Below are positions 16,525-59,416 of a stretch of DNA of 64,000 nucleotides, one piece after another; within the stretch, counting starts at the first letter, position 1, and every line of letters begins with the position of its first letter. A model generated the notes under the pieces. The model searched no databases. It saw only the letters and a program-made list of their open reading frames with translations, and had not been told where the DNA came from. The stretch is from the sequence record HE978309; one strand, 5' to 3'. A program made the position numbers and the translations under genes. The stretch comes from Enterobacteria phage GEC-3S.

Positions 16525-16566
16525 TGCATTATAGGGGATCACCGATCCCCTGTCAACAACTTTTTA
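16525..16566 (-). promoter_or_regulatory. early promoter cassette (PeSL-like)
   Basis: TTGACA, spacer GGGGATCGGTGATCCCC (17-nt palindrome), TATAAT. Confidence 0.6.
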
Positions 16567-17082
16567 GTTATTTTTTAATTGCTCATCTTGCAATAGGGAA
16601 ATCACATGCTGGCGATGTTCTTCCGATTGAGGAACACCGAAAAAGTTTGTTTTGTAGAAATACTCTAATCGGTCTTCTCGTGTGCTCTCTTCCATCATGA
16701 TCGCGGGTAGTCCGAGATTTCGGAAACGTCGCTTTTCTGCTGGCGTAAAATCACTGTAATACAACATAGAATCATCATTACCCGCAATGCTAAATTCATC
16801 CTTCATAAAGGAGAATATTGCGTTTAAACGCTGTTTACCGTCCACGATTTCGATCTCATAGCGAGATCCATCATCAATCTTAGCCATTGCGATAGCACCA
16901 ACCGGAAAATCATTAATCAGGTTTTCGATAAACATACGTTTGTTTTCGGTGTCCCATACCAAAGGACGCTGATAATCTGGGTTCATGTTGATATAGCCAT
17001 CTTCTAACCACGCCTCATAAACAGAGATGACAAAGTTTTTAGTATTGGTATAGTAACGGCGTTTAGGCGTTAAACGGTTCAT
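16564..17082 (-). CDS. DUF262 (ParB/GmrS N-terminal-like) domain protein
   Basis: ORF track 16564..17118; start ATG coupled to upstream stop (TAACATG) with AGGAGA RBS; motifs PDYQRPLVWD and IVDGKQRL. Confidence 0.6.
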   Translation of the reverse strand: MNRLTPKRRYYTNTKNFVISVYEAWLEDGYINMNPDYQRPLVWDTENKRMFIENLINDFPVGAIAMAKIDDGSRYEIEIVDGKQRLNAIFSFMKDEFSIAGNDDSMLYYSDFTPAEKRRFRNLGLPAIMMEESTREDRLEYFYKTNFFGVPQSEEHRQHVISLLQDEQLKNN

Positions 17083-17083
17083 G

Positions 17084-17416
17084 TTATAGTCTCCTGAATG
17101 GATCATCACGTAAATCAATATCTTTTAAGAACTCATCCCATGAATGGCGGATATTGTTCTTAATTCTCCAGATAAGCGCAGGGATTGAACGCTCTCCCAT
17201 CTGGAAGTAGGGATCATATGATCCGTATGCCCAATATGCTACTACAATTCCACAATCAGCGCAATAGTATTCTATTTCACTTGCTGGCGACCAAATTCCA
17301 TCAATATGATCGGTGATCCTGCTTTCGATGTTATGGCTATGGCAATCAGGGCAACGGATGCAATGACCTTGTTTATCGTAATTTGACGTTAGCGAATACT
17401 TAAACAATCTCATCAT
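17084..17416 (-). CDS. zinc-ribbon protein (two CxxC pairs)
   Basis: 110 aa; CIRCPDC...CADCG. Confidence 0.5.
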   Translation of the reverse strand: MMRLFKYSLTSNYDKQGHCIRCPDCHSHNIESRITDHIDGIWSPASEIEYYCADCGIVVAYWAYGSYDPYFQMGERSIPALIWRIKNNIRHSWDEFLKDIDLRDDPFRRL

Positions 17417-18129
17417 AGATCCTTATTGGCTTCAAATACTGCCTTTGCGAATCCTCGCGGGGTAAGTGACCTGATAGTCTTTGTTCTGGTTCCTTTCCCG
17501 CCTAGCTTAGAATGCTGTTTACTGTACCCTTTATTAATATGCAACGGTTTCTTTTCTGGCATTATAAAGCCTTGTCCGGTCCATAAGCAAGTCTTTTTCG
17601 GGTACATATCACGGGCGGCGATATACTCAGGAAACGTAGGATGTTTATCATCTTCCGGCAAATAACCGCCATATTCCCACGGATGGAACATGTAATCAGG
17701 CTTACGCCACATACTAGAGATAACGCTTACAGGATTCTCTATCATGTAGGGAACTCCTAGCCATTCACCCAAATAAGCGGTTATTTTAGCTGCCCGTACA
17801 TCATGAACTTGAATCAACGGTCCTTGTTCTCGTTTCTTTCGTTCAAAGTGTGCAGCGCCACTAACAGCTAAATTGGTACACGGTGGGAATGCAAAGATAA
17901 TATCCGGTTTCCCCCATTCAAGGTCCATTGCTCTTTCCAGCCAGTTCAAATCAATCCAGGTGTTTACATAGGTAATGTTTGGATGTTCAAATCTGGTATT
18001 ATACTTTTTGTATGTACCGTGGTCGGCGTCATCCGCATTAAAGCAGACTACCTTATGACCTGCTTTAGCCCATTCTAGACCCATTATCCCCGATCCATCA
18101 AAGTTGCAGAATATTAATTTTTGTTTCAT
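17413..18129 (-). CDS. C5-cytosine methyltransferase-like SAM-dependent enzyme (compact, no obvious target-recognition domain)
   Basis: 238 aa; motif I-like FCNFDGSGIMG, PC motif FPPCTNLAVSG, ENV-like MIENPVS, C-terminal RSLTPRGFAKAV. Confidence 0.5.
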   Translation of the reverse strand: MKQKLIFCNFDGSGIMGLEWAKAGHKVVCFNADDADHGTYKKYNTRFEHPNITYVNTWIDLNWLERAMDLEWGKPDIIFAFPPCTNLAVSGAAHFERKKREQGPLIQVHDVRAAKITAYLGEWLGVPYMIENPVSVISSMWRKPDYMFHPWEYGGYLPEDDKHPTFPEYIAARDMYPKKTCLWTGQGFIMPEKKPLHINKGYSKQHSKLGGKGTRTKTIRSLTPRGFAKAVFEANKDL

Positions 18130-26814: not shown

Positions 26815-27135
26815 TTATTTATAAATTTCGACGATCTGTGCTGGAGTCAGCCCGTCTACATTAATCAGACTATCAAGCCCAAAACTACGGAAACCTTCAA
26901 CTGCAATTTCATATACGGGCAAAGATGTTTCTGATTCTTTACGCGGTTTTTCTACATTAGGAACTAACCACTTTTCGTATGTTTCAAACGGCATCAGTGC
27001 CGGATCTCGCGTGGCGATCATCTCGCGGACAGTACCATCTTTCTTAGTAAACTGCAAAGAGTGAGTACCGACCGAAAACATTTTCTTTAGTGCTTCACGA
27101 ATTGCGATATTATCAATTTGTTCAGTCATTATCAA
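26815..27135 (-). CDS. hypothetical protein (106 aa)
   Basis: ORF track; between cd and 31. Confidence 0.5.
   Translation of the reverse strand: MIMTEQIDNIAIREALKKMFSVGTHSLQFTKKDGTVREMIATRDPALMPFETYEKWLVPNVEKPRKESETSLPVYEIAVEGFRSFGLDSLINVDGLTPAQIVEIYK
26816..26823 (-). promoter_or_regulatory. T4-type late promoter (TATAAATA on minus strand) upstream of gene 31
   Basis: plus-strand TATTTATA about 43 nt upstream of the gp31 ATG, overlapping the stop region of the preceding ORF. Confidence 0.4.
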
Positions 27136-27628
27136 TACCCTTCAAATCAGTCAATAATGCTTTTGGAATACGCGTAACCGTAATGTCGGCTTTATCCAAA
27201 ATATCAGCCCAATCACGCCCACCATTTCGATCATATGTGTCGCAATAATATAGATGTTTAATTCCACTGTTTGCAATTGCTTTAGCGCAATCTGGACATG
27301 GTGAAGCAGTACACCACATACTAGCGCCTTCAATCGATACACCGCTACGGGCAGCAAACAAAATAGCATTTAATTCAGCGTGGATCTCGTTTTTCTGTGA
27401 CCATGCACTATGCTCTGACCGTTTTTCAGGGATCATTTTACCTTCATCATCCAGCCAACCGCTTTTATGTGCATGACAGCTACAATTTACTTGCCCTGCT
27501 GGAGTTCCATTAAATCCAGTAGAAATGATTCGCCCGTCTTTTTCAATTAGTGCGCCTACCTTCCACGAAACGCATTTAGAGTTCTTTGCGATTAGATAGG
27601 CGATCTGCATGTAAGTTTGTGACAACAT
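27122..27628 (-). CDS. cd: dCMP deaminase
   Basis: 168 aa; HAELNAI and CTASPCPDCAKAI zinc-binding CDA motifs. Confidence 0.9.
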   Translation of the reverse strand: MLSQTYMQIAYLIAKNSKCVSWKVGALIEKDGRIISTGFNGTPAGQVNCSCHAHKSGWLDDEGKMIPEKRSEHSAWSQKNEIHAELNAILFAARSGVSIEGASMWCTASPCPDCAKAIANSGIKHLYYCDTYDRNGGRDWADILDKADITVTRIPKALLTDLKGIDND

Positions 27629-27649: not shown

Positions 27650-27853
27650 TTAACCGTATACGCGAAAGTATTCTACTGATCCGTCGCTATACTGTTTTAC
27701 ATTGAATGTATTCACACCATGATTATTGCTCATAATGACATATACACTACGACGCTCATCGCTAAACGGGTTAACTGGTGCGGGTTCAATTTCAACATTA
27801 AAACCACGTTTAGCAAGTGCTTCGCCTAATTGCTTGAGTTTATCGGTAAACAT
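27650..27853 (-). CDS. hypothetical protein (67 aa)
   Basis: ORF track. Confidence 0.45.
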   Translation of the reverse strand: MFTDKLKQLGEALAKRGFNVEIEPAPVNPFSDERRSVYVIMSNNHGVNTFNVKQYSDGSVEYFRVYG

Positions 27854-28731
27854 TAAAAGTCTCCGTAGTTAACCTGAAAACATTCTACACCAATTGCGCG
27901 GTACATGTCAACCACTTGATCACGGTCATCTACTGCCAACACAACATGATAACGCGGTGCAATTTCAGAGAAGAAAATCTCTTTCTTCACTTCATGGTCA
28001 GGACGACGATCATTAGTTTCACGTTGAAAGTGATCACTAGGTTCAATACCCTGTTCACGCAGCCATTGCAGAGTATCTTCTTCGCAAACATCCTCACGCC
28101 CTGAGCATGTAATGATACGATAACCATTATCACGATACAGTTTAAGCATTTCGATCACTTGCGGACGCGGTTTATCTTCTTTGACCTTTGTCCAGTCAAA
28201 CGGATGACGACCGCCCTTATCCGCTAATGTCCCATCAATATCAAAGATCACTGCTTTCGGCAGCATGGTATTCGGTTTGTATACTTCTTGACCCATATAT
28301 TCCTGCATCAGATAAAATTGGTTGCGCAAATGAGAAAGTGGAATTGCTTTCTCTCCGCGATAGAAATTACGTTTCTTTAGTGTCTCAAATGATTCATTGA
28401 ACACTTGTTCAGTATACACCGCGTTAAATTCTTTTGCAAGTTTTTTGTAGAATACACGATGTTTTTCTTTCAGGTTAGTATCAGAGATAATGATACTTAA
28501 TCCGCGTGATAGAGTCTCACGAGCAATCATTCTCTGAATAGACTCTACCAGCTTTTCTTTTTCCTTAGTATACTTGTATTTCAAATGTGAGTCAACACCA
28601 AACAACATAAGACGAAGGTCATCACGATTCACATTACGATAATTACTAAACCGTTTACATGTCTCCATAGCCCATGTAGTTTTACCGGACCCAGAACAAC
28701 CAACGGTTAAAATCACTTCACATTTCGGCAT
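27853..28731 (-). CDS. pseT: polynucleotide 5'-kinase/3'-phosphatase
   Basis: ORF track 27853..28752; P-loop GCSGSGKTT near N-terminus and HAD motif FDIDGT in C-terminal half. Confidence 0.85.
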   Translation of the reverse strand: MPKCEVILTVGCSGSGKTTWAMETCKRFSNYRNVNRDDLRLMLFGVDSHLKYKYTKEKEKLVESIQRMIARETLSRGLSIIISDTNLKEKHRVFYKKLAKEFNAVYTEQVFNESFETLKKRNFYRGEKAIPLSHLRNQFYLMQEYMGQEVYKPNTMLPKAVIFDIDGTLADKGGRHPFDWTKVKEDKPRPQVIEMLKLYRDNGYRIITCSGREDVCEEDTLQWLREQGIEPSDHFQRETNDRRPDHEVKKEIFFSEIAPRYHVVLAVDDRDQVVDMYRAIGVECFQVNYGDF

Positions 28732-29183
28732 TATTTCTCCTTCGGTTTGCACCGTTCCTCATTAAGTTCTTTGCGATAATAACACATGATCAACTTACTT
28801 TCAAGTGTATATCTCTTAATATCCGCAAGCCAGACTCTGAATTTTTGGGAGTCCTCCCACGACATAGAAACTCTAGGTTTACCGTCTATTGTATCCACTT
28901 TCAGGTCAATGTCAACTTTTTCTATTGGTGCTGGTAGTGGAGGATGTAATTTCGGTTCTTGTGAATAATGGTCCATTGTACACGAAGAAAGCACAAATAC
29001 AATAGGCACAGCGAAGACATGGATTATGGAGGTCTGAAAATTCTTGTGTACTTTCTTAAACATCCAGTGTATCACGAAAATTGAAAACACCATCAGAATA
29101 ATAATGCTTGCACCTATCCACAAATAATCAACCAGATTAAAATTGCTTATCTGCTCTTGCGTAGGCAATATTTCTATGCTCAT
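28731..29183 (-). CDS. o-spanin (outer-membrane lipoprotein), start uncertain
   Basis: lipobox VFVLSSC after a hydrophobic segment, Pro-rich mature region; probable start near 29063 (MFKKVHK...); adjacent to pseT as T4 pseT.2. Confidence 0.55.
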   Translation of the reverse strand: MSIEILPTQEQISNFNLVDYLWIGASIIILMVFSIFVIHWMFKKVHKNFQTSIIHVFAVPIVFVLSSCTMDHYSQEPKLHPPLPAPIEKVDIDLKVDTIDGKPRVSMSWEDSQKFRVWLADIKRYTLESKLIMCYYRKELNEERCKPKEK

Positions 29184-29503
29184 TTAGTAGCCTCCTTTAA
29201 TTCTTCGGTAAACTCCTTAAATGAGTCATTAAGCTGTTTCTCTACCAACTTGGGTTTTTGTGCTACTACATAGCCTCGTGTAGCGTCTTTCATTGCTTTG
29301 TTTTGTTCTTCTGCAAACTTAGTTCTTATTCCGTACATCTCCTTTTGCAGCGAGTCTACAATCTTCATCTTTTCATCTGTCTTTTTCTTATACTCTGTAA
29401 ATTCCTGATTCAGTCGATCTACCTCCTTTTTATTTTCCCACCACATATTTCCACCTACCCCCAGCAACACAGAGATGATAACAATGTATATCAGCTTTGA
29501 CAT
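29180..29503 (-). CDS. i-spanin (N-terminal TM plus coiled coil)
   Basis: ORF track 29180..29554; start MSKLIYIVIISVLLGV with GGGGGT RBS; position as T4 pseT.3. Confidence 0.55.
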   Translation of the reverse strand: MSKLIYIVIISVLLGVGGNMWWENKKEVDRLNQEFTEYKKKTDEKMKIVDSLQKEMYGIRTKFAEEQNKAMKDATRGYVVAQKPKLVEKQLNDSFKEFTEELKEATK

Positions 29504-29513
29504 ATTACCCCCA

Positions 29514-29541
29514 ACGACAAAAGGCGGGGAACTAGCCCCGC
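29514..29541 (-). terminator. rho-independent terminator after rnlA
   Basis: hairpin GCGGGGCUAGUUCCCCGC then CUUUUGUCG. Confidence 0.4.
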
Positions 29542-29547
29542 TTATTA

Positions 29548-30717
29548 TTACCAATCAATCTTATCTGCCGGAATCAGTTTCTTATAATTCCGTAGATAGT
29601 AAGTTTTCATTGAATCCAGAATACGGTCATAATCAAGACCATCGAATGCAATCATCAGACACATGAAAATATATGCTTGTGCATCACCATGTTTACGCGA
29701 TTCGATAGTCGCATTGGATGCATATGTCTTTCTGTCTTCTCCCGCGTGTTCGTTATAAAACTCTGTTGCTGTCGTAAAGGCATTGCGAAGAATAGACCTG
29801 AATGCTTCCTCGAATAACTCGATTCGTTCCAGTGCTTCCGGTTCGCCTTCATATGCAGCACGCAAATCATCGGTTTCGCTTTCTACGACATAGTAGATCA
29901 GGTTATTAGGAAACATCGATGTGTTTTTAATGTTATGCACACCAATATACCATTCACTCTTCACTTTGAACAGTTGACCGTCTTTAGTGCGTGCAACAAT
30001 TCCTTCGATACCTTCTGCGGTCCGAACTTCATCAAGAATATTGCTAAAACGCGCTGAATCAACCTGTAACGCATTTACCAGATGAGGACGTAGGATTGAA
30101 TCGGCGAATAGCATTTGATGCGGTACATACTCTCCTGTGACGTTATGGCGTACATTCAGAAGTGTTAGCGACGGTTCAGAATATTCTACAACAATTCGGT
30201 TGCTGGGTGCTGTATATTCAAAGTTGAAAGTATAATCAGACCCAATATCGGCGATCTTAGCGCGTAGATCCGCATACTTCTCGGAATACAGAAGACCGTT
30301 TGCTCTCTCTGCCTGGCTTGAGTATAAGGCCGCTTTAGACTTCAACTGAACATAGCCGTTATCAATGTATGTGCTTACTAGACTACCGTCCATTTTGTCC
30401 ATGACCATTTCCACATCTTCCGGCTTAAAGCGAGCGCGATCATTCTCACCTAAATTAAAAAACTTCTCCATAGGACGAGATGCAATGCGGACCGGACTAC
30501 CTTTATCGTCAATTTCAAACATGATCCCGCGACACTCTAACGCATCTGGTTTATTCCACATTTCCGGTTTGCTCAAGTACAGATAACTAAAAATGCGCAT
30601 ACGGGTTTGCATCGCCGTAATTTCATCTTTGTAATAGAACGTATCAGATCCGTCACATAGTGCCATCAGATTTTTGAACAATGCTAAAACTTTTTTGTTG
30701 TTTTCTTTTGTTGACAT
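29548..30717 (-). CDS. rnlA: RNA ligase 1
   Basis: 389 aa; LECRGIMFE...VRIASRPMEKFFNL matches T4 gp63/Rnl1. Confidence 0.9.
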   Translation of the reverse strand: MSTKENNKKVLALFKNLMALCDGSDTFYYKDEITAMQTRMRIFSYLYLSKPEMWNKPDALECRGIMFEIDDKGSPVRIASRPMEKFFNLGENDRARFKPEDVEMVMDKMDGSLVSTYIDNGYVQLKSKAALYSSQAERANGLLYSEKYADLRAKIADIGSDYTFNFEYTAPSNRIVVEYSEPSLTLLNVRHNVTGEYVPHQMLFADSILRPHLVNALQVDSARFSNILDEVRTAEGIEGIVARTKDGQLFKVKSEWYIGVHNIKNTSMFPNNLIYYVVESETDDLRAAYEGEPEALERIELFEEAFRSILRNAFTTATEFYNEHAGEDRKTYASNATIESRKHGDAQAYIFMCLMIAFDGLDYDRILDSMKTYYLRNYKKLIPADKIDW

Positions 30718-31114
30718 AATTTGTGTTCCATTCTGGTTTAAATTTGGTGATCAAAACAGGTTCTTCGATATCGGCAGTGCTTATAATATCCTTACCCGTT
30801 GGATTCTCAATATATAACTCAAAGCACTGGCGGTAATAGAATGTTACTGTCTTACCTTCCTCTAGCGCCTTATGAATATTCTTACTCTTGCGAGTATCCG
30901 CTGTTGGTGTTTGTCTGTTAATGCTAGTCCGGTAATAATTGATCCGCTTTCTGAGATTGACAGTCTGACCAATGTATACCAGTTCATTATCAACCGCAAT
31001 AGCGTAAAGAACATTTAAACGGTTCTTCTGAGGCGGTAGAATAACGTCACCATCTTTACACTCTAAACATGAATATTTAACGAATCCATAGTTTTCTATT
31101 AGCTCATTAATCAT
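30653..31114 (-). CDS. denA: endonuclease II (GIY-YIG)
   Basis: 153 aa; VLYAIAVDNELVYIGQTVNLRKRINYYR matches T4 DenA. Confidence 0.85.
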   Translation of the reverse strand: MINELIENYGFVKYSCLECKDGDVILPPQKNRLNVLYAIAVDNELVYIGQTVNLRKRINYYRTSINRQTPTADTRKSKNIHKALEEGKTVTFYYRQCFELYIENPTGKDIISTADIEEPVLITKFKPEWNTNYVNKRKQQKSFSIVQKSDGTM

Positions 31115-32453: not shown

Positions 32454-32930
32454 TTAATCATGACCGTGATTTGCAATATCCGCTCGCGTCTTATCTTTGT
32501 GATTTCCTACGTCAAAAACACGATAACCATTTTCACGCAAAACTTTAATCACTTCTGGGTTATCCTCAAAGACTCCGACAACTTCATCTTTATCAAAGGA
32601 TTTAATTACCTCTAATTTGATGTGATAGTCTTTACGGGAGTCTGTGCGGCCTCTCATAAAGATTTTATCAAAACACACCCCGTTAGAAATTAACCAATCA
32701 ATTGTTTCCATGTAAGCATGTGAACTTCGTCCGGTGAGGATGTAAATCAAATGCCCGTTATCGGAAAGAGCATTAATAACACGAATTACATCGTAAATGG
32801 GGGAATCTCCCCCACATGCCTTGTTATATTCGATCCATGACTCAACTTTATCAAGATTTTCGGTTGGCATCTTTGTTAGTCGATGTGTTGGATCTGTGAT
32901 CGTAAAATCTAAATCGACAAAATATATCAT
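32454..32930 (-). CDS. HAD-superfamily phosphatase (possible deoxynucleotidase)
   Basis: 158 aa; motif I FVDLDFT, motif II ILTGR, acidic motif FEDNPE. Confidence 0.5.
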   Translation of the reverse strand: MIYFVDLDFTITDPTHRLTKMPTENLDKVESWIEYNKACGGDSPIYDVIRVINALSDNGHLIYILTGRSSHAYMETIDWLISNGVCFDKIFMRGRTDSRKDYHIKLEVIKSFDKDEVVGVFEDNPEVIKVLRENGYRVFDVGNHKDKTRADIANHGHD

Positions 32931-37011: not shown

Positions 37012-38235
37012 TTATACTGCCATTTGAGCGGTGATCGCTGGATGGCTTTGATAGTTGTGAATTTTAAAATCTTTCGGAGTCTTTGTCAATACCTCATCTA
37101 AAGATTTAAATTCCGGCAACTCAATTGTTGGTTTATCAAACGGAACACGGCTTAACTGTTCCATAACTTGATCAAAATGGTTTTTGTAAATGTGGCAATC
37201 CCCACACTGATAAACCAGTTCGCCAACTTCTAACCCGCAAATCTTCGCGATGATATGCGTTAACAGTGCATAGCTCGCTACGTTGAACGGATTCCCTAAA
37301 AAGAGATCATTCGAACGCATGAAAAATAAACAACTCAATTTGTTGTCGTTGGAAACATAAAACTGTACCATCGGATGACATACACCTAACACAGCATTAT
37401 GCGTTTCCTGTACGTTCCATGAATCAATGATAATACGACGACTATACGGATCATTCTTGATCATGTCAATAACTTTTTGTAACTGGTCTTCCCAAATCTT
37501 CGGGCGATAGACATATTCTTCATCGTCTTTAGTGCTTGATGTGTCTACGTCCATACTAACAAACATCGTGGTATCCGGTGCTATAATATCCCCACCCAGA
37601 TAATCACTATCAAGCAGATAACCGAAATAACCATCATCTACCCATTCCTGGAATCCCCACAAGCAATATGCATCATTAACAAAATTAGATTGAGTCTTCC
37701 AGTGGTCTGCTACCAGAATATAATCAAACTCTTCATAACGCATACCACGCCAGATAGCACATAAACGGTCTTCTGTGTCATTGGTTGGCGTAAAGTCTTC
37801 TACCCACGGGTGCTTAAATGTATGTGTATATTTGCTCTTAACGCGCTTAATTTTGATTTCACCATGTGGATGAATCGGTTTGCGTCGCCACGCCATACCA
37901 TACATATTGCCGACATTATAACCATTGAATCGCAAGGGATTCTTTTCTTTCATATCAAGACAGTTGCCGCGCCAAATATCAAAGGCTTCCTCGTCAAACT
38001 TGCCGCGTGTAATTTCCTGTAAGCGACGGCGGTCAAGTGATCCCTCCATAAACCATAGCAATTCGCCAATCACAGAGGCTGTAGCCATCTTTTTAGTGGT
38101 CAGTAATGGGAAACCCTTGCTTAAATCAATTCGCATCTCTGCGCCGAATTTAGAGAGCGTACCTACCCCCGTGCGGTCTTCACGAGGACAGCCATTATCA
38201 AGAACATCACGCAACAGTTTCAAATATTCTTTCAT
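37012..38235 (-). CDS. td: thymidylate synthase with a large internal insertion
   Basis: 407 aa; conserved DRTGVGT, catalytic CHPMVQFYV, SNDLFLGNPFNVASYALL; roughly 120 extra residues between YGMAWRR and DPYSRRII; no intron. Confidence 0.85.
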   Translation of the reverse strand: MKEYLKLLRDVLDNGCPREDRTGVGTLSKFGAEMRIDLSKGFPLLTTKKMATASVIGELLWFMEGSLDRRRLQEITRGKFDEEAFDIWRGNCLDMKEKNPLRFNGYNVGNMYGMAWRRKPIHPHGEIKIKRVKSKYTHTFKHPWVEDFTPTNDTEDRLCAIWRGMRYEEFDYILVADHWKTQSNFVNDAYCLWGFQEWVDDGYFGYLLDSDYLGGDIIAPDTTMFVSMDVDTSSTKDDEEYVYRPKIWEDQLQKVIDMIKNDPYSRRIIIDSWNVQETHNAVLGVCHPMVQFYVSNDNKLSCLFFMRSNDLFLGNPFNVASYALLTHIIAKICGLEVGELVYQCGDCHIYKNHFDQVMEQLSRVPFDKPTIELPEFKSLDEVLTKTPKDFKIHNYQSHPAITAQMAV

Positions 38236-39512: not shown

Positions 39513-39554
39513 TGCATTATACACTATTGCGTTACGCTGTCAACTCTTTTTCAA
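39513..39554 (-). promoter_or_regulatory. early promoter (sigma70-like)
   Basis: TTGACA, about 16 nt, TATAAT. Confidence 0.5.
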
Positions 39555-40710
39555 AAGATTTTACGATATACATGATGGTGCTCAATTCGGACGGCGCTAC
39601 TGTCTCTGTGTAGCCATCCGGCATATCTTCTTTCGAGATATAGGAAGTTTTACCTTTCATTGCTTCCTTGATTTTGTTCTCTAATTCTAAGATCTTTTGA
39701 CCGTCTTGTAAAGTCAATTCATAAAAGATCTCATGATCGAACTTTGAAACACGAGATTGGTTTCTCATGCGCTCATGTGTTTCTTTGTTTGTTATTCCAA
39801 ATTTCACGCCAACAAAGGAATCATTGTTGGTTAATTTCTGTATATAAAGAGTTCCTGTCTTTAATGCCTGATAACCATGCTTAGAACACAACGGGCAGCG
39901 TGTTCCGCGATTAACAAAATTATCAATAGTTACATCCCATTCATGGTTACGTTCGCATGTCAGAAGTATTCTTGTTAATGCACCTTTCCACTTTCCTGAA
40001 ATCCCAATAAATTTTAGTCTGTTGGTTTCGCATATTTTTTCAATTTGTTTTAATCGGTCACTTTTTGTTATTGGTGCTGTTCCGCTACATTTGCGACACC
40101 GACGACCTAGTTTGAACTTATCATAACTTTGTTCGTAAATGTGATTATTAGGACACTCAAATTTAAGTTTAGTTTTTGTTCCTCTCCATTCCCCAATTAT
40201 ACCCAAAAATTTATAATCTCCTTTATTTTCATTTATATAAGATAAGGAATCTTCTTTATCATGCATCTTGCCCCCGTTACATAAAGGACATCTTGTTTTT
40301 TGATGAATGAAATCTGTATATGTTGGTTGGTATGTGTGTCCGTTTGTACAGTTCATAATGAGTCTTGTTCTGCTATTTTTATACTCCCCACCAACAAAAC
40401 CAACAAATACATCGTTTGTTTCTTGTTTTATTCTTTCTATCACATTGTTTGGGTTTAATCTTTGAGAATCAACCACACATTTCTTACACGAAACTTTTTT
40501 CCTGATATTTGCTAGAGTTGATGTGTATTCATGCTTGTTATTACATAATATAAGAGCTTTTGTTTTGAGACCAGACCATTCTCCAACAAACCCCATGAAA
40601 GAATAACCAACTTCCAAACATGATTTTTTTACAACATTTTCCCAATAGAAGGGAGTTTTCGTGTTTCCTTTTATTTCTATACGAATCTCATGTGCTTGAC
40701 GTACTAACAT
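39532..40710 (-). CDS. protein with four zinc-ribbon repeats and a C-terminal T5orf172/GIY-YIG-like domain
   Basis: ORF track 39532..40755; start MLVRQAHEIR with GGAGGA RBS; four repeats of G..G.W.G..TK....C...H.Y...(F)....RC..C; C-terminal GTLYIQKL...VGVKFGITN. Confidence 0.55.
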   Translation of the reverse strand: MLVRQAHEIRIEIKGNTKTPFYWENVVKKSCLEVGYSFMGFVGEWSGLKTKALILCNNKHEYTSTLANIRKKVSCKKCVVDSQRLNPNNVIERIKQETNDVFVGFVGGEYKNSRTRLIMNCTNGHTYQPTYTDFIHQKTRCPLCNGGKMHDKEDSLSYINENKGDYKFLGIIGEWRGTKTKLKFECPNNHIYEQSYDKFKLGRRCRKCSGTAPITKSDRLKQIEKICETNRLKFIGISGKWKGALTRILLTCERNHEWDVTIDNFVNRGTRCPLCSKHGYQALKTGTLYIQKLTNNDSFVGVKFGITNKETHERMRNQSRVSKFDHEIFYELTLQDGQKILELENKIKEAMKGKTSYISKEDMPDGYTETVAPSELSTIMYIVKSFEKELTA

Positions 40711-40737
40711 ATTTTTATCCTCCGTTGTTTCGATGAT

Positions 40738-40779
40738 TGTATTATACATTACCACATCAGCATGTCAATACATTTTCAT
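40738..40779 (-). promoter_or_regulatory. early promoter (sigma70-like)
   Basis: TTGACA, 16-17 nt, TATAAT, directly after the gp32 terminator. Confidence 0.5.
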
Positions 40780-51570: not shown

Positions 51571-54339
51571 ATGGCAGATTTAAGCAGAATCCAATTTAAA
51601 CGCACTAGCACTAAAGGTCGTAAACCTGATGCTAGTACGATGAATCCGGGGGAATTGGCAATCAACCTTGCGGATCAATATCTTCTTACTAAAAATGATT
51701 CCGGTGCTATTATCAATTTAAGTTGCCCTCCGGTGTATGACCGTGATGTTACAATGGCGGGTAAGGTTAAAGGTAATAATTATATCTTAGGTAAAACCGC
51801 CAACTATCTGGAAGATCAGACAGCGCGAGATCTTAACTACTTTGGTGCTTTCCGTACCAATGGTCTTGATGGTTTTCTCGAACTCACGCTAAACGTTCCT
51901 CATTCTTCTGGTGTTCAGCATGGTCGAGGATTTACTTTCCAGTATGGACACACAGGAAACCGTGTAGAAACTTATGGTTATAATAAAGAAGGACAAAAAG
52001 CATTTAGCTATAAAATGTATCACGAAGGTGATAAACCAACACCCTCAGAATTGAACGTTTACAGCAAACAAGAAGTTGACCGTATGTTTGTTAAAAACGT
52101 TAAACTTGCTACAGTTCCTGGTGATATAGTTGACGGTTATTTTAAATTAGCAACTGCAATGATTCCGCAAAGCGGTCGTAGTGTATTTTTCCGTATTCAT
52201 GGTGGTAACGGATATAACGTTACTGCATACGATCAAGTTGATATTGTAGAAATTGTTATTCGCAGTGGAAATAATCGTCCTAAAGGTGTTAACGTTATTG
52301 CATATCGCCGAAATACAAACAAAGCATTTGATGTTTTGGCTGTTAATACTTCTGGTGATAACTATGATATCTACGTGAAATATCAGCGTTATACTGATAA
52401 CGTTATTGTTGAATTTGGTAAAAGTGTTGATGTTAATCTGGTAGTCCATGACGTTCCAGACTTTGTTGTTGATCGTCCTGCTGGCGATAATGTTATTGGC
52501 GGTCGCGCGGTAACTCTTTTTAACACCGAAAACAAACGAGGTGTGTTGAGTTTTGACGATAACACACAAAATAGTTATGATATTGTTCACTTGAGTAATG
52601 ATAGGGGTACTGGACGAAAATATATTCGTAAATTCCGTAGTAACTATAATGAAATGATCTGGCACGAGACGGTTCAAGGCGCCAGCTATCGTCTGGCTAC
52701 TGGTGCAACTGATGTTCAGGAGATTCTAACCGTTGAATCTGTTAGCTCAATTGCTGGAACTCATAAAGGTAATATTACTTCTGGCCGTATGCTGTTAAAT
52801 GGTGGTAGTAATGTTATTACCTTGCGGCGTCCTGCTGGTCAATCCAACCATATTGCGTTTCAAGATAATCGTACTGGAGATATTACCCGTCAAGGATGGA
52901 TCGGTTATGCCAATGCTGATACTAACGTTTTTGAATGGTATAGTGATGTAGGTGGCAGTTCTATTCGTCAACATATCGACGGACAGATCGAATTTCAGAC
53001 AGGTAGCATGAAGCGAGTTTATACTAACGGACAATTCATTTCATTATATGCCGATGGCTTCCGTACAGTATATGGAAACTATGGTTCATGGTGGCGAAAT
53101 GACGGTAGTAACGTTTATCTGATGAGCACAAAATCAGGCGACACTATGGGTCCGTGGAATACCTTTAGGCCGTTCATATACAGTCTCGCCAATGGAAACG
53201 TTACTCTAGGTGGTAGCGATGCTGGCAACCATTTAATGCGTCTCAATAATGAAAATCGTCAAGTAGAAATAAATGCAACAACACATTTAGGGTCTCGATT
53301 ATATTGGGAACGTAGCGAAGGATCGGCATCTAGATTTTTTATTAAGAATTGGGGTAATGGATCTTCTCGCGCTCAAGTGTGGGAACTTGCTGACGAGACA
53401 GGTTATCATGTATATTCTCAGCGAAACGACGCGGGTGTTCTTCAATTCCGTACTGCTGGTAATTTTGAGACTGGTGGTGATGCTCAAGTAAACGGGACTT
53501 TACGTGTCACCAATGTTCTTCGAACAGATAACCAAATTCAGATTTATCGCGATAACAACAAAGAACTCTGGTTTAAGGATGCTAATGGTACTAACCGTGG
53601 TGTTATCTGGGGTGATAGCACAGGTCAAATGCGCATTCGAAACTATAACAGCGGAGAATTTGACCATGTTTTCCAGACTGGTATGATTCGCTTAGAACGT
53701 GGGTATGCAAACGGTAGCGACCGTGGTTTGATTCGCGGAGAAGTACAAGGTGGTGCTTGGTCAGAATGGAAAACTCGCGCTGCTGGCTTATTGGTTGACT
53801 GTCCAGCTGCTCAAACTTCCGCATATAACGTATGGAAAGCGACCAAATGGGGTTTAGACCACATCGCGGCAATGGGCGTTCATGTTCCTAGTGGCGTTAT
53901 TACTAATGCTATGGCACGTCTTCATATTCATACCACAAACTTTGACTTTAACGCCTCCGGTGATTTCCAAGCAGGTCGTAACGGTAATTTTAACGATGTG
54001 TATATTCGTTCTGATGCTCGCCTTAAAATCAATAAGGAAGAGTATAAGGAGAATGCCACCGATAAAGTTAATCGCTTGACGGTATACACCTATGACAAGG
54101 TTAAATCTTTAACCGACCGTACTGTCATTGCTCATGAAGTTGGTATTATTGCTCAGGATCTTGAGAAAGAATTGCCGGAAGCCGTAACAACTTCTAAGGT
54201 CGGCGATCCTGATAAGCCAGAAGAGATCTTAACAATTTCTAACTCTGCTGTCAACGCTCTTTTAATTAAGGCGTTTCAGGAAATGAGCGAAGAACTTAAA
54301 GCCGTTAAAGCTGAACTAGCGGAACTTAAAAAGAATTAA
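51571..54339 (+). CDS. 37: gp37 long tail fibre distal subunit with C-terminal intramolecular chaperone (peptidase S74-like) domain
   Basis: 922 aa; N-terminus MADLSRIQFKRTSTKGRKP similar to T4 gp37; C-terminal about 110 aa begins SDARLKINKE. Confidence 0.8.
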   Translation: MADLSRIQFKRTSTKGRKPDASTMNPGELAINLADQYLLTKNDSGAIINLSCPPVYDRDVTMAGKVKGNNYILGKTANYLEDQTARDLNYFGAFRTNGLDGFLELTLNVPHSSGVQHGRGFTFQYGHTGNRVETYGYNKEGQKAFSYKMYHEGDKPTPSELNVYSKQEVDRMFVKNVKLATVPGDIVDGYFKLATAMIPQSGRSVFFRIHGGNGYNVTAYDQVDIVEIVIRSGNNRPKGVNVIAYRRNTNKAFDVLAVNTSGDNYDIYVKYQRYTDNVIVEFGKSVDVNLVVHDVPDFVVDRPAGDNVIGGRAVTLFNTENKRGVLSFDDNTQNSYDIVHLSNDRGTGRKYIRKFRSNYNEMIWHETVQGASYRLATGATDVQEILTVESVSSIAGTHKGNITSGRMLLNGGSNVITLRRPAGQSNHIAFQDNRTGDITRQGWIGYANADTNVFEWYSDVGGSSIRQHIDGQIEFQTGSMKRVYTNGQFISLYADGFRTVYGNYGSWWRNDGSNVYLMSTKSGDTMGPWNTFRPFIYSLANGNVTLGGSDAGNHLMRLNNENRQVEINATTHLGSRLYWERSEGSASRFFIKNWGNGSSRAQVWELADETGYHVYSQRNDAGVLQFRTAGNFETGGDAQVNGTLRVTNVLRTDNQIQIYRDNNKELWFKDANGTNRGVIWGDSTGQMRIRNYNSGEFDHVFQTGMIRLERGYANGSDRGLIRGEVQGGAWSEWKTRAAGLLVDCPAAQTSAYNVWKATKWGLDHIAAMGVHVPSGVITNAMARLHIHTTNFDFNASGDFQAGRNGNFNDVYIRSDARLKINKEEYKENATDKVNRLTVYTYDKVKSLTDRTVIAHEVGIIAQDLEKELPEAVTTSKVGDPDKPEEILTISNSAVNALLIKAFQEMSEELKAVKAELAELKKN

Positions 54340-58745: not shown

Positions 58746-58985
58746 GAAATTTTTCGCTTCTTCTTCGGTCATCATCACCGCGCATTCGTGCATAACTTTG
58801 AAAACCGGGTCAATCATATCGAATGCTTCGCGGGACAGTTTACGAGAAGCGATTTTGACTGCTTCAACGTCTTCTACTACAGGAACAAAAACAGTTTTCA
58901 GTTCGTCGAGCATGGCAGCTTCTTTTTCATTCAGGAAGATTCCAGCGTCGTACAATGCAACTTCGATAACATTAACTTTAACCAT
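58743..58985 (-). CDS. hypothetical protein (~80 aa)
   Basis: ORF track 58743..59048; start MVKVNVIE with GGAGGAAATAAAA RBS. Confidence 0.45.
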   Translation of the reverse strand: MVKVNVIEVALYDAGIFLNEKEAAMLDELKTVFVPVVEDVEAVKIASRKLSREAFDMIDPVFKVMHECAVMMTEEEAKNF

Positions 58986-59016
58986 TTTTATTTCCTCCAG
59001 TTCGTTTCGGTATGGG

Positions 59017-59058
59017 AGTATAATACTACCGATGACCTTTGGCGTCAACTAGTTTTTG
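59017..59058 (-). promoter_or_regulatory. early promoter cassette (PeSL-like)
   Basis: TTGACG, 17 nt, TATTAT-like, conserved leader ACTCCCATACCGAAACGAAC. Confidence 0.5.
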
Positions 59059-59249
59059 TTATTTTCGTGAAAATTTTTCGTCGCCTCATGTGCTTTTCTC
59101 TGGGCTTCTTGTTGTGCTTGCTGGCGTGCTGCCTCTTGCGATGTCATAACGGAAGCATTTGCAGCAGTTACAGCCGCGACCATCGCTGCGGTATTAGCAT
59201 TTACAGTACATGCACTAGCCAGCAAAGCAATTGCAATCATTTTCTTCAT
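59049..59249 (-). CDS. small secreted/periplasmic protein (66 aa)
   Basis: signal peptide MKKMIAIALLASACTVNA; Gln/Ala-rich mature part. Confidence 0.45.
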   Translation of the reverse strand: MKKMIAIALLASACTVNANTAAMVAAVTAANASVMTSQEAARQQAQQEAQRKAHEATKNFHENNKN

Positions 59250-59416
59250 AGTTTCCCCTTTAGGTTATCTTCGACCTTCATCCATTCCGCGTATTCTTGC
59301 GCGGCTACTTTCGGATTTAGTCCGTCTTCGTACATTGCTTCAAGTAATTCTTCGTCGGTGGGCTTATACCCTAGATAAGCCTCCACCTGATTTTTCCAAA
59401 TTTTATACCAGTTCAT
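59246..59416 (-). CDS. hypothetical small protein (56 aa)
   Basis: ORF track 59246..59485; start MNWYKIWKNQ with GGTGATAAT RBS. Confidence 0.4.
   Translation of the reverse strand: MNWYKIWKNQVEAYLGYKPTDEELLEAMYEDGLNPKVAAQEYAEWMKVEDNLKGKL

What the first reader, a model, noticed from the sequence alone, without database searches (positions are those of the whole stretch)
28731..31114. No alc gene between the spanins and rnlA although denA and cd are present
The block pseT, o-spanin, i-spanin, rnlA, denA is contiguous with overlapping genes and leaves no room for alc, which T4 places here. Alc and DenA both belong to the T4 strategy of discriminating cytosine DNA from modified DNA. The missing alc and the C5-MTase-like gene leave the nature of the cytosine modification in this phage open.
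Basis: inference. Interest (0 to 1): 0.3.

Follow-up and report, generated by a model that had tools for sequence, protein, structure and literature searches.

The report
RB49-type phage naturally lacks alc
The window comes from an RB49/Phi1-like (Krischvirus) T4 relative, a genus already known to package ordinary cytosine DNA and to lack alc with the rest of the T4 hydroxymethylcytosine gene set, so the missing gene is real but ordinary.

Summary
On the minus strand, pseT, pseT.2 (o-spanin), pseT.3 (i-spanin), rnlA and denA are packed with overlaps of 1, 4 and 65 nt. The only gap is 44 nt, where T4 has the 504-nt alc gene. The window is 96-99% identical to Krischvirus genomes (Phi1, RB49, JSE). 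tblastn and an Alc profile HMM find no alc in the window or in the complete Phi1 and RB49 genomes. tblastn also finds no gene 42, alpha/beta-gt, denB, ndd or arn there. denA, cd, gene 56 and dam are present. The same HMM finds alc at this locus in T4, Jiaodavirus, Dhakavirus, Gaprivervirus and an Aeromonas Tulanevirus. It finds none at this locus in Slopekvirus or KVP40. This pattern is published (Petrov 2010; Nikulin 2021; a 2025 review table). RB49 DNA is cut by HpaII and NheI, and TB34 DNA shows only canonical cytosine by HPLC/MS. Both carry the same C5-MTase-like gene. denA and cd are not hmC-specific markers. Residual questions are how an intact DenA spares the phage's own DNA, what the small C5-MTase-like protein does, and one unexplained report of a hypermodified Krischvirus (SAP). 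Novelty: already known. Interest: low.

The parts
27122..27628 (-). cd, dCMP deaminase (168 aa)
   Evidence: 56% identical to T4 Cd, E 4e-60. Annotated cd in Phi1.
27853..28731 (-). pseT, polynucleotide 5'-kinase/3'-phosphatase (292 aa from the ATG at 28731)
   Evidence: 44% identical to T4 PseT, E 2e-68. Start as annotated in Phi1. Overlaps the pseT.2 stop by 1 nt.
28731..29183 (-). pseT.2, o-spanin (150 aa; lipobox LSSC with Cys68; about 45 extra N-terminal residues with a second hydrophobic segment)
   Evidence: phrog_812 Rz-like spanin, 1e-32, over residues 53-150. 48% identical to T4 PseT.2. Strong SD (AAGGAGG) before the ATG at 29183.
29180..29503 (-). pseT.3, i-spanin (107 aa; N-terminal transmembrane segment)
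   Evidence: phrog_739 Rz-like spanin, 2e-26. 35% identical to T4 PseT.3. ATGA overlap with pseT.2.
29504..29547 (-). 44-nt spacer at the position where hmC-type relatives carry alc; holds a terminator-like hairpin (29541-29524, GCGGGG-N6-CCCCGC followed by CTTTTGT) and the pseT.3 Shine-Dalgarno sequence
   Evidence: Sequence read. Terminator-pattern scan. Fold -12.2 kcal/mol, not better than shuffles, so function is inferred only.
29548..30717 (-). rnlA, RNA ligase 1 (389 aa)
   Evidence: Pfam RNA_lig_T4_1 3e-20 and T4_Rnl1_C 6e-33. 42% identical to T4 RnlA.
30653..31114 (-). denA, endonuclease II (153 aa; GIY-YIG); overlaps the rnlA start by 65 nt
   Evidence: PDB 2WSH (T4 EndoII), E 4e-38. 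T4 residues K12, G49, R57, K76 and E118 are all conserved (residue roles from PMC2764454). Pfam GIY-YIG 6e-5.
   Evidence: No Pfam hit at E<=0.01. phrog_757 'DNA methyltransferase' 9e-91. Invariant FDGSG, PPCT, ENPV and RSLTPRGFA motifs in a family of >7,300 clusters. AF2 model pLDDT 89. Best structural matches are DNMT3B/3A catalytic domains, E 3.5e-6, TM 0.5. Present in RB49 and TB34.
37012..38235 (-). td, thymidylate synthase with an enlarged small-domain insertion (407 aa); the only gp42 paralogue in the window
   Evidence: Pfam Thymidylat_synt 2e-83 in two stretches. About 60% identical to solved TSs over the C-terminal 160 residues, including VCHP and PFNVASYALLTH. Only a weak paralogous hit to T4 gp42.

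Best explanation
The window is the right-hand ~64 kb of a Krischvirus (RB49/Phi1/JSE-type 'pseudo-T-even') genome. This genus does not replace cytosine. It lacks the whole T4 module that makes and exploits hydroxymethylcytosine: gene 42, the glucosyltransferases, alc, denB, ndd and arn. In T4, Alc stops E. coli RNA polymerase elongating on cytosine-containing templates. A phage whose own DNA contains cytosine could not transcribe itself if it made Alc, so the gene is absent. rnlA is followed directly, after a 44-nt spacer with a terminator-like hairpin, by the spanin pair. DenA, Cd and (outside the window) gp56 are kept because they belong to the nucleotide-scavenging and dTTP-supply set shared by almost all T4 relatives whatever their DNA chemistry. 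The phage is ~40% G+C, so extra dTTP supply is useful regardless. Shown here: the gene order, the absence of alc and the rest of the module in the window and in complete genomes of close relatives, and the co-variation of alc with hmC-type lineages at this locus. Taken from the literature: canonical cytosine in RB49 and TB34. Inferred: that Alc would be self-toxic, and that DenA is tolerated as it is in cytosine-containing T4 mutants.
For: Genus assignment: 57 records at 95-99% identity, best Phi1 at 98.1%. The window is collinear with Phi1 99555-164270. Absence: T4 Alc, gp42, a-gt, b-gt, DenB, Ndd and Arn give no tblastn hit better than E~0.01 in the window, Phi1 or RB49, apart from gp42-td paralogy (window E 8.5e-5). 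In the same runs gp56, Dam, DenA, Cd, RnlA, PseT and the spanins are found in Phi1 and RB49; the window holds only DenA, Cd, RnlA, PseT and the spanins. A 17-sequence Alc profile HMM run with --max on all six-frame ORFs >=30 aa gives best E 0.39 (window+Phi1) and 0.28 (RB49). The same HMM scores alc at 4e-89 in T4, 2e-80 in Jiaodavirus, 2e-69 in Dhakavirus, 6e-91 in Gaprivervirus and 5e-32 in Aeromonas Tulanevirus. In each case alc lies between rnlA and pseT.3. The HMM finds nothing at the locus in Slopekvirus or KVP40. Literature: alc and denB have the 'same distribution as gene 42', and denA is in nearly all T4 relatives (PMC2993671). The Krischvirus row reads dCTPase+, hmC-, denB-, denA+, ndd-, alc- (PMC12115623). 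The RB43 and RB49 groups 'only have DenA and dCTPase-dUTPase homologs' (PMC8056088). RB49 DNA is cut by HpaII and NheI, so it has no hmC/ghmC (PMC4041780). TB34 has canonical cytosine by HPLC/MS (PMC13390438). As described in PMC12115623, T4GT7 carries 42-, 56-, alc- and a deletion of the rIIB-52 region that includes denB and ndd. denA is not among its listed mutations, so an intact denA appears compatible with cytosine DNA. No glycosyltransferase, TET or other DNA-modifying domain was found among the larger unassigned ORFs of the window.
Against: Only 64 kb of this isolate is available and no record is identical to it, so absence elsewhere in its own genome rests on relatives. DenA looks fully functional, with all five characterised residues conserved. 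T4 EndoII nicks unmodified DNA with low specificity, so how the phage spares its own DNA is unexplained. One paper reports a Krischvirus (SAP) with 5-hmdC and gentiobiosyl-hmdC and no known pathway. The function of the C5-MTase-like protein is untested. All 8 base differences between the SAP and TB34 records in their first 35 kb fall on CCSGG sites. That could reflect a site-specific modification.
Confidence: 0.93

Rival explanations
1. alc, and perhaps the hmC pathway, is present but relocated to the ~100 kb of the genome outside the window.
For: The window covers only about 39% of a ~164-kb genome. T4-type genomes contain hyperplastic regions.
Against: The complete Phi1 and RB49 genomes, 96-98% identical to the window, have no Alc, gp42, a-gt, b-gt or DenB by tblastn, and no Alc by profile HMM. 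Neither annotation lists them. A published genus-level table gives Krischvirus as alc-, hmC-, denB-. Wherever alc was found here, it sits at this same locus.
Confidence: 0.01
2. The phage does modify its cytosines, by a route that uses no gp42 or glucosyltransferase homologues. Candidates are the C5-MTase-like protein, or a cryptic pathway as reported for Krischvirus SAP. It would discriminate host DNA with a non-homologous Alc analogue or with DenA alone.
For: SAP was reported with about one-third 5-hmdC and two-thirds alpha-gentiobiosyl-mdC, and was sensitive to BrxU. A conserved C5-MTase-like gene with an intact catalytic PC motif is present. DenA is intact. The CCSGG-specific discrepancies between the TB34 and SAP assemblies hint at some site-specific mark.
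Against: RB49 and TB34 carry the same genes and have unmodified bulk cytosine. In the first 35 kb, SAP and TB34 differ only by homopolymer indels and CCSGG-to-CCWGG calls. TB34 is the outlier relative to Phi1 and RB49, and its essential genes are annotated as split, so there is no credible genetic difference to explain different chemistry. SAP's modification profile is the same as that of seven Tequatroviruses from the same collection, and BrxU cut its DNA least. My inference is that this fits a mixed or mislabelled stock. A DNA C5-methyltransferase cannot produce hmC-glucosides, and no glycosyltransferase or TET domain was found.
Confidence: 0.04
3. The absence is a secondary loss: a Krischvirus ancestor had the hmC module, including alc at this site, and deleted it. 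The alternative is that the module was inserted only in the Tevenvirinae-type lineages. This concerns history, not present function, and is compatible with the best explanation.
For: alc also occurs at this exact junction in an Aeromonas Tulanevirus outside Tevenvirinae, so the gene is old at this locus. gp56 and denA persist in Krischvirus.
Against: No remnant of alc is present: the spacer is 44 nt and there is no HMM signal. Every other module member is also missing. Slopekvirus and KVP40 also lack alc at the locus. No phylogeny was computed.
Confidence: 0.15

Closest known systems
Escherichia phages Phi1, RB49 and JSE (genus Krischvirus), pseT-denA locus
   Same: Identical gene order and junctions: cd, cd.2, pseT, pseT.2 (453 nt), pseT.3 (324 nt), rnlA (1170 nt) and denA (462 nt) overlapping rnlA. 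Identity is 97-98%. The same C5-MTase-like/DUF262 block and the same long td are present.
   Different: Only 2-4% nucleotide divergence, plus three short non-matching patches and one 327-nt indel elsewhere in the window. No deposited record is identical.
Phage T4 pseT-denA region (Tequatrovirus)
   Same: Same order and orientation of cd, pseT, the spanins, rnlA, denA, nrdB and nrdA. Proteins are 35-56% identical.
   Different: T4 has alc (504 nt) between pseT.3 and rnlA, pseT.1 between pseT and pseT.2, and cd.1 and cd.3-cd.5. None of these is present here. The o-spanin here is 150 aa against 99 aa in T4. denA and rnlA overlap by 65 nt here and are separate in T4.
T4GT7, the cytosine-DNA laboratory derivative of T4 (42-, 56-, denB deletion, alc-)
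   Same: It shows which T4 functions must go for a T4-type phage to live with cytosine DNA: gene 42, denB and alc. These are the genes missing from Krischvirus. denA is not among T4GT7's listed mutations (genotype as given in PMC12115623).
   Different: T4GT7 is a laboratory construct that also inactivates gene 56. Krischvirus keeps a gp56 homologue (49-51% identical to T4 gp56) whose substrate preference is unknown.
Slopekvirus (Klebsiella phage vB_KpnM_05F) and Schizotequatrovirus KVP40
   Same: rnlA is followed by small ORFs and then pseT, with no alc by annotation or by HMM.
   Different: These genera are distant (RnlA 33-38% identical). KVP40 lacks the adjacent denA, and its locus sits next to gene 43.

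Membership tests
Genus Krischvirus (RB49-like T4 relatives) | High nucleotide identity and collinearity with type members | tested here: met
   95-99% identity to 57 records over 5 kb. Collinear with Phi1 99555-164270 at 96-99%.
T4-type hmC discrimination module | alc (Pfam PF17527) present | tested here: not met
   tblastn best E 2.4 (window), 0.27 (Phi1), 0.24 (RB49). Profile HMM best E 0.39 and 0.28. Positive controls score 5e-32 to 6e-91.
T4-type hmC discrimination module | dCMP hydroxymethylase (gene 42) | tested here: not met
   The only hit is the paralogous thymidylate synthase (E 8.5e-5 in the window, 0.007-0.012 in Phi1 and RB49). That protein is ~60% identical to solved TSs and keeps the PFN Asn typical of dUMP-specific enzymes. 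The specificity rule is from established TS/gp42 biochemistry and was not tested here.
T4-type hmC discrimination module | DNA alpha/beta-glucosyltransferases, denB, ndd, arn | tested here: not met
   No tblastn hit better than E 0.016 in the window, Phi1 or RB49. These were tested by single-sequence search only, without profiles.
T4-type hmC discrimination module | gp56 dCTPase/dUTPase | tested here: met
   49-51% identical homologue in Phi1 and RB49. It lies outside the window. Substrate specificity is not testable here.
T4-type hmC discrimination module | Virion DNA with cytosine replaced by hmC or glucosyl-hmC | not testable with these tools
   Published for relatives only. RB49 is cut by HpaII and NheI. 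TB34 is canonical by HPLC/MS. SAP is reported as modified.
T4 endonuclease II (DenA, GIY-YIG) | GIY-YIG core and the residues shown to matter in T4 EndoII (K12, G49, R57, K76, E118) | tested here: met
   Alignment to 2WSH, E 4e-38, with all five positions conserved (residue roles).
T4 endonuclease II (DenA, GIY-YIG) | Nicks or cleaves cytosine DNA but not the phage's own DNA | not testable with these tools
Self-protection in a cytosine-DNA phage is an acknowledged open point.
DNA (cytosine-5) methyltransferases (Pfam PF00145) | Passes the family model's threshold | tested here: not met
   No Pfam hit at E<=0.01. A profile against PDB gives only M.HaeIII at E~1. A few homologues carry a precomputed PF00145 hit.
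DNA (cytosine-5) methyltransferases (Pfam PF00145) | Motif I (FxGxG), motif IV (catalytic PC), motif VI (ENV) | tested here: met
   FDGSG, PPCT and ENPV are invariant or nearly so across 20 homologues.
DNA (cytosine-5) methyltransferases (Pfam PF00145) | C5-MTase fold with a target-recognition domain | tested here: inconclusive
   AF2 model pLDDT 89. The top Foldseek hits are DNMT3B/3A catalytic domains, but TM is only 0.5 and rmsd is 8-9 A. At 238 aa there is little room for a target-recognition domain.
Two-component spanins (T4 PseT.3/PseT.2) | i-spanin with an N-terminal transmembrane segment, followed by an overlapping o-spanin with a lipobox Cys | tested here: met
   phrog_739 and phrog_812 hits. 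MSKLIYIVIISVLLGVGG transmembrane segment and LSSC lipobox read from the sequence. 4-nt overlap.

The most novel reading that the evidence does not exclude
Krischviruses, including this one, might be able to hypermodify cytosine (hmC or glycosyl-hmC, as reported once for phage SAP), or at least mark it site-specifically. This would use enzymes unrelated to gp42 and the T4 glucosyltransferases. They would then live without alc or denB because they must tolerate both DNA states. Candidate parts in the window would be the 238-aa C5-MTase-like protein and the insertion-bearing Td.
Probability: 0.04. Interest if true: 0.75.

Novelty: already known. Interest (0 to 1): 0.08.

Why it matters
As it stands, little. 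The finding re-derives from raw sequence a genus-level trait of RB49-like phages that has been in the literature for over a decade. It is a useful sanity check: alc and denB, not denA or cd, are the reliable genomic indicators of a cytosine-replacing T4 relative. Three small questions remain. How does a cytosine-DNA phage tolerate an apparently active EndoII? What does the very widespread ~230-aa C5-MTase-like phage family do? Is the single report of a hypermodified Krischvirus real?

Tried and rejected
1. A divergent or relocated alc. An Alc HMM was run with --max on every six-frame ORF >=30 aa of the window, Phi1 and RB49. Nothing scored above 8 bits, while controls scored strongly.
2. The weak gp42 hit at 37174-37383 as a hidden hydroxymethylase. 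Rejected: it is td, a bona fide thymidylate synthase with an enlarged small-domain insertion. The insertion alone has no Pfam hit.
3. The C5-MTase-like gene as a bulk cytosine modifier. Rejected, because RB49 and TB34 carry it and have unmodified bulk cytosine.
4. The SAP report as evidence for Krischvirus hypermodification. Given low weight after checking the SAP and TB34 records directly.
5. The hairpin in the 44-nt spacer. It matches the terminator pattern, but its folding energy is no better than shuffles, so it is only called terminator-like.
6. Other DNA-modification enzymes in the window. Pfam on the larger unassigned ORFs gave CYTH, LprI, CapR, ADP-ribosyltransferase, gp30.3 and DUF2774, with no glycosyltransferase or TET domain.
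7. Desplats 2002 (RB49 snapshot) and Carlson & Overvatn 1986 could not be retrieved.
8. A test for avoidance of EndoII sites in the phage genome was not run. The 16-bp consensus is not in the held text, and I would not rely on memory for it.
Full report
**What is at the coordinates.** Genes in 27-37 kb all read on the minus strand. With starts as annotated in the closest relative, pseT is 27853-28731, pseT.2 is 28731-29183, pseT.3 is 29180-29503, rnlA is 29548-30717 and denA is 30653-31114. All are intact ATG-to-stop ORFs. The junctions are overlaps of 1, 4 and 65 nt, plus one 44-nt gap between rnlA and pseT.3.

tblastn with the T4 proteins confirms the gene identities:
- RnlA 42% identical (E 1e-90)
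- DenA 49% (6e-42)
- PseT 44% (2e-68)
- Cd 56% (4e-60; gene at 27122-27628)
- PseT.2 48%
- PseT.3 35%

Pfam, PHROGs and PDB agree. T4 itself has pseT, pseT.1, pseT.2, pseT.3, alc (504 nt), rnlA, denA. The 44-nt spacer contains GCGGGGCTAGTTCCCCGC followed by CTTTTGT, then GGGGGTAAT before the pseT.3 ATG. That is a terminator-like hairpin plus a ribosome-binding site, although its folding energy is unremarkable.

**What the window is.** A 5-kb query matches 57 phage records at 95-99% identity. All named ones are RB49/Phi1/JSE-type coliphages of the genus Krischvirus. The window is collinear with Phi1 99555-164270, the right end of that record. No deposited genome is identical to it. The Phi1 annotation shows the same junctions and lists no alc, 42, a-gt, b-gt or denB. 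It does list 56, cd, denA, dam and two further 'DNA methyltransferase' genes.

**Is alc anywhere?** T4 Alc, gp42, alpha-gt, beta-gt, DenB, Ndd and Arn were run by tblastn against the window and the complete Phi1 and RB49 genomes. None gave a hit better than E~0.01, apart from the expected gp42-thymidylate synthase paralogy (window E 8.5e-5). In the same runs gp56 and Dam were found in Phi1 and RB49. DenA, Cd, RnlA, PseT and both spanins were found in all three targets.

A profile HMM was built from 17 Alc homologues of 49-78% identity and run without filters on all six-frame ORFs >=30 aa. Its best E-values were 0.39 (window plus Phi1) and 0.28 (RB49). As positive controls, the same HMM scored:
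- 4e-89 in T4
- 2e-80 in a Jiaodavirus
- 2e-69 in a Dhakavirus
- 6e-91 in a Gaprivervirus
- 5e-32 in an Aeromonas Tulanevirus

In every control, alc lies between rnlA and pseT.3. The HMM found nothing at the equivalent locus of a Slopekvirus or of KVP40. When alc exists it sits at this exact junction, and Krischvirus does not have it.

**What is already known.**
- Petrov et al. 2010 (PMC2993671, Table 4) state that alc and denB have the 'same distribution as gene 42'. They state that denA is in all T4 relatives except Acinetobacter phages and cyanophages, and gene 56 is in all but the giant Aeromonas and Vibrio phages.
- A 2025 comparative table lists Krischvirus as dCTPase+, hmC-, denB-, denA+, ndd-, alc- (PMC12115623).
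[quoted passage not shown] They note the C-5 cytosine methylase homologues and ask how these phages protect themselves from their own enzymes (PMC8056088).
- RB49 DNA is cut by HpaII and NheI, and the authors concluded it had neither hmC nor ghmC (PMC4041780).
- The Krischvirus TB34 showed only canonical cytosine by HPLC/MS (PMC13390438).

**How it most likely works.** Alc terminates host RNA polymerase on cytosine-containing templates (function as given in the T4 annotation). A phage with cytosine DNA would shut itself off, so alc, denB and gene 42 travel together and are jointly absent here.

DenA and Cd are not part of that linkage. They belong to the nucleotide-supply set shared across T4 relatives. 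A ~40% G+C phage on a higher-G+C E. coli host (about 51%, from general knowledge) benefits from dCMP deaminase and thymidylate synthase regardless of modification.

The T4GT7 genotype makes the same point. It carries 42-, 56-, alc- and a deletion of the rIIB-52 region that includes denB and ndd. denA is not among its listed mutations. A cytosine-DNA T4 therefore needs to lose alc and denB, but apparently not denA.

DenA here looks active. It aligns to T4 EndoII (2WSH) at E 4e-38 and keeps K12, G49, R57, K76 and the catalytic E118. How self-DNA is spared is not shown by anything I could compute.

**The C5-MTase-like gene.** The ORF at 17413-18129 (238 aa) has no Pfam hit and no PDB sequence hit. 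It matches phrog_757 'DNA methyltransferase' at 9e-91. It belongs to a very large family (>7,300 clusters) of ~230-aa, mostly phage-borne proteins with invariant FDGSG, PPCT, ENPV and RSLTPRGFA motifs. A confident AF2 model (pLDDT 89) is closest to DNMT3B/3A catalytic domains, but only at TM 0.5.

'C5-MTase-like' is therefore a fair label, and membership in PF00145 is not established. The gene and its DUF262 (GmrSD_N) and zinc-ribbon neighbours are present at 96-99% identity in essentially all Krischvirus records, including RB49 and TB34. It therefore cannot be a bulk cytosine modifier. Sparse site-specific methylation remains possible.

**The one contrary report.** The 2026 Durham Collection paper reports that Krischvirus SAP, 99.96% identical to TB34, contains 5-hmdC and alpha-gentiobiosyl-mdC. 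The authors call this unexplained.

I checked the deposited records. Over the first 35 kb, SAP and TB34 differ by 8 substitutions and 6 one-base indels.
- All 8 substitutions are on the central base of CCSGG in SAP, read as CCWGG in TB34. They affect 8 of the 16 CCSGG sites in that stretch.
- Phi1 and RB49 agree with SAP at 7 of the 8 positions.
- Five of the 6 indels are deletions in A/T homopolymers in TB34.
- The TB34 annotation shows uvsW, inh and gene 29 split.

The published variant table shows the same pattern genome-wide, including 'frameshifts' in DNA polymerase, the clamp and UvsX. The differences are therefore systematic errors in the TB34 assembly. There is no credible genetic difference to explain different DNA chemistry.

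SAP's modification profile also equals that of seven Tequatroviruses in the same collection, and BrxU cut SAP DNA least. My inference, not proven, is a mixed or mislabelled stock. I give the cryptic-pathway reading about 4%.

**Verdict.** The feature is an already known genus-level trait of RB49-like phages. Interest is low.

Noticed in passing
window 28731-29183 (-): The o-spanin ORF is 150 aa, against 99 aa in T4. The spanin profile covers only residues 53-150, and the lipobox Cys is residue 68. The first ~45 residues add an acidic N-terminus and a second hydrophobic segment (LWIGASIIILMVFSIFVIHW). The upstream ATG has a strong AAGGAGG ribosome-binding site, so the long form is probably translated. 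A lipoprotein precursor with two hydrophobic segments before the lipobox is unusual.
   Followed up: partly
window 37012-38235 (-): Thymidylate synthase is 407 aa (annotated as 406 aa in Phi1). The catalytic core is normal, but residues ~87-240 form a greatly enlarged 'small domain' insertion. The insertion is about 90 residues longer than in L. casei or S. aureus TS and has no Pfam match.
   Followed up: partly
window 16564-18129 (-): This is a conserved three-gene block. It comprises a stand-alone GmrSD_N/DUF262 domain protein (184 aa, Pfam 4.7e-20), a zinc-ribbon protein (110 aa) and the 238-aa C5-MTase-like protein. The MTase-like family has more than 7,300 clusters in the protein collection, mostly unnamed, and is also found in ~48-kb Salmonella phages.
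   Followed up: partly
L019 (SAP 1-35000) versus L020 (TB34 1-35000): All 8 substitutions between the two deposited Krischvirus records fall on the central base of CCSGG (SAP, Phi1 and RB49), which TB34 reads as CCWGG. They affect 8 of the 16 such sites. The indels are A/T homopolymer deletions in TB34. This looks like a nanopore-type systematic error. It may be a basecaller artefact, or a hint that Krischvirus DNA carries a modified base at CCSGG or CCNGG.
   Followed up: partly
window 39889-40710, 53121-53817, 58757-59258, and the 7516/7517 junction: These are the only stretches that do not align to Phi1. They lie inside a CapR-domain/zinc-finger ORF (39532-40755), in the distal part of tail-fibre gene 37, and in a small-ORF region. 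In addition, 327 nt of Phi1 (107072-107398, in the gene 51/27 region) are absent from the window.
   Followed up: no
window 32454-32930 (-): A second, stand-alone HAD phosphatase resembling the PNKP phosphatase domain (Pfam HAD_PNKP 3e-13) sits between nrdB and denA. It is in addition to the full-length pseT.
   Followed up: no
whole window, Phi1 and RB49: T4 MotA and AsiA have no homologue in the window or Phi1 (tblastn E>1; not checked in RB49), which suggests there is no T4-type middle-transcription machinery. Ndd and Arn are also absent from the window, Phi1 and RB49.
   Followed up: no
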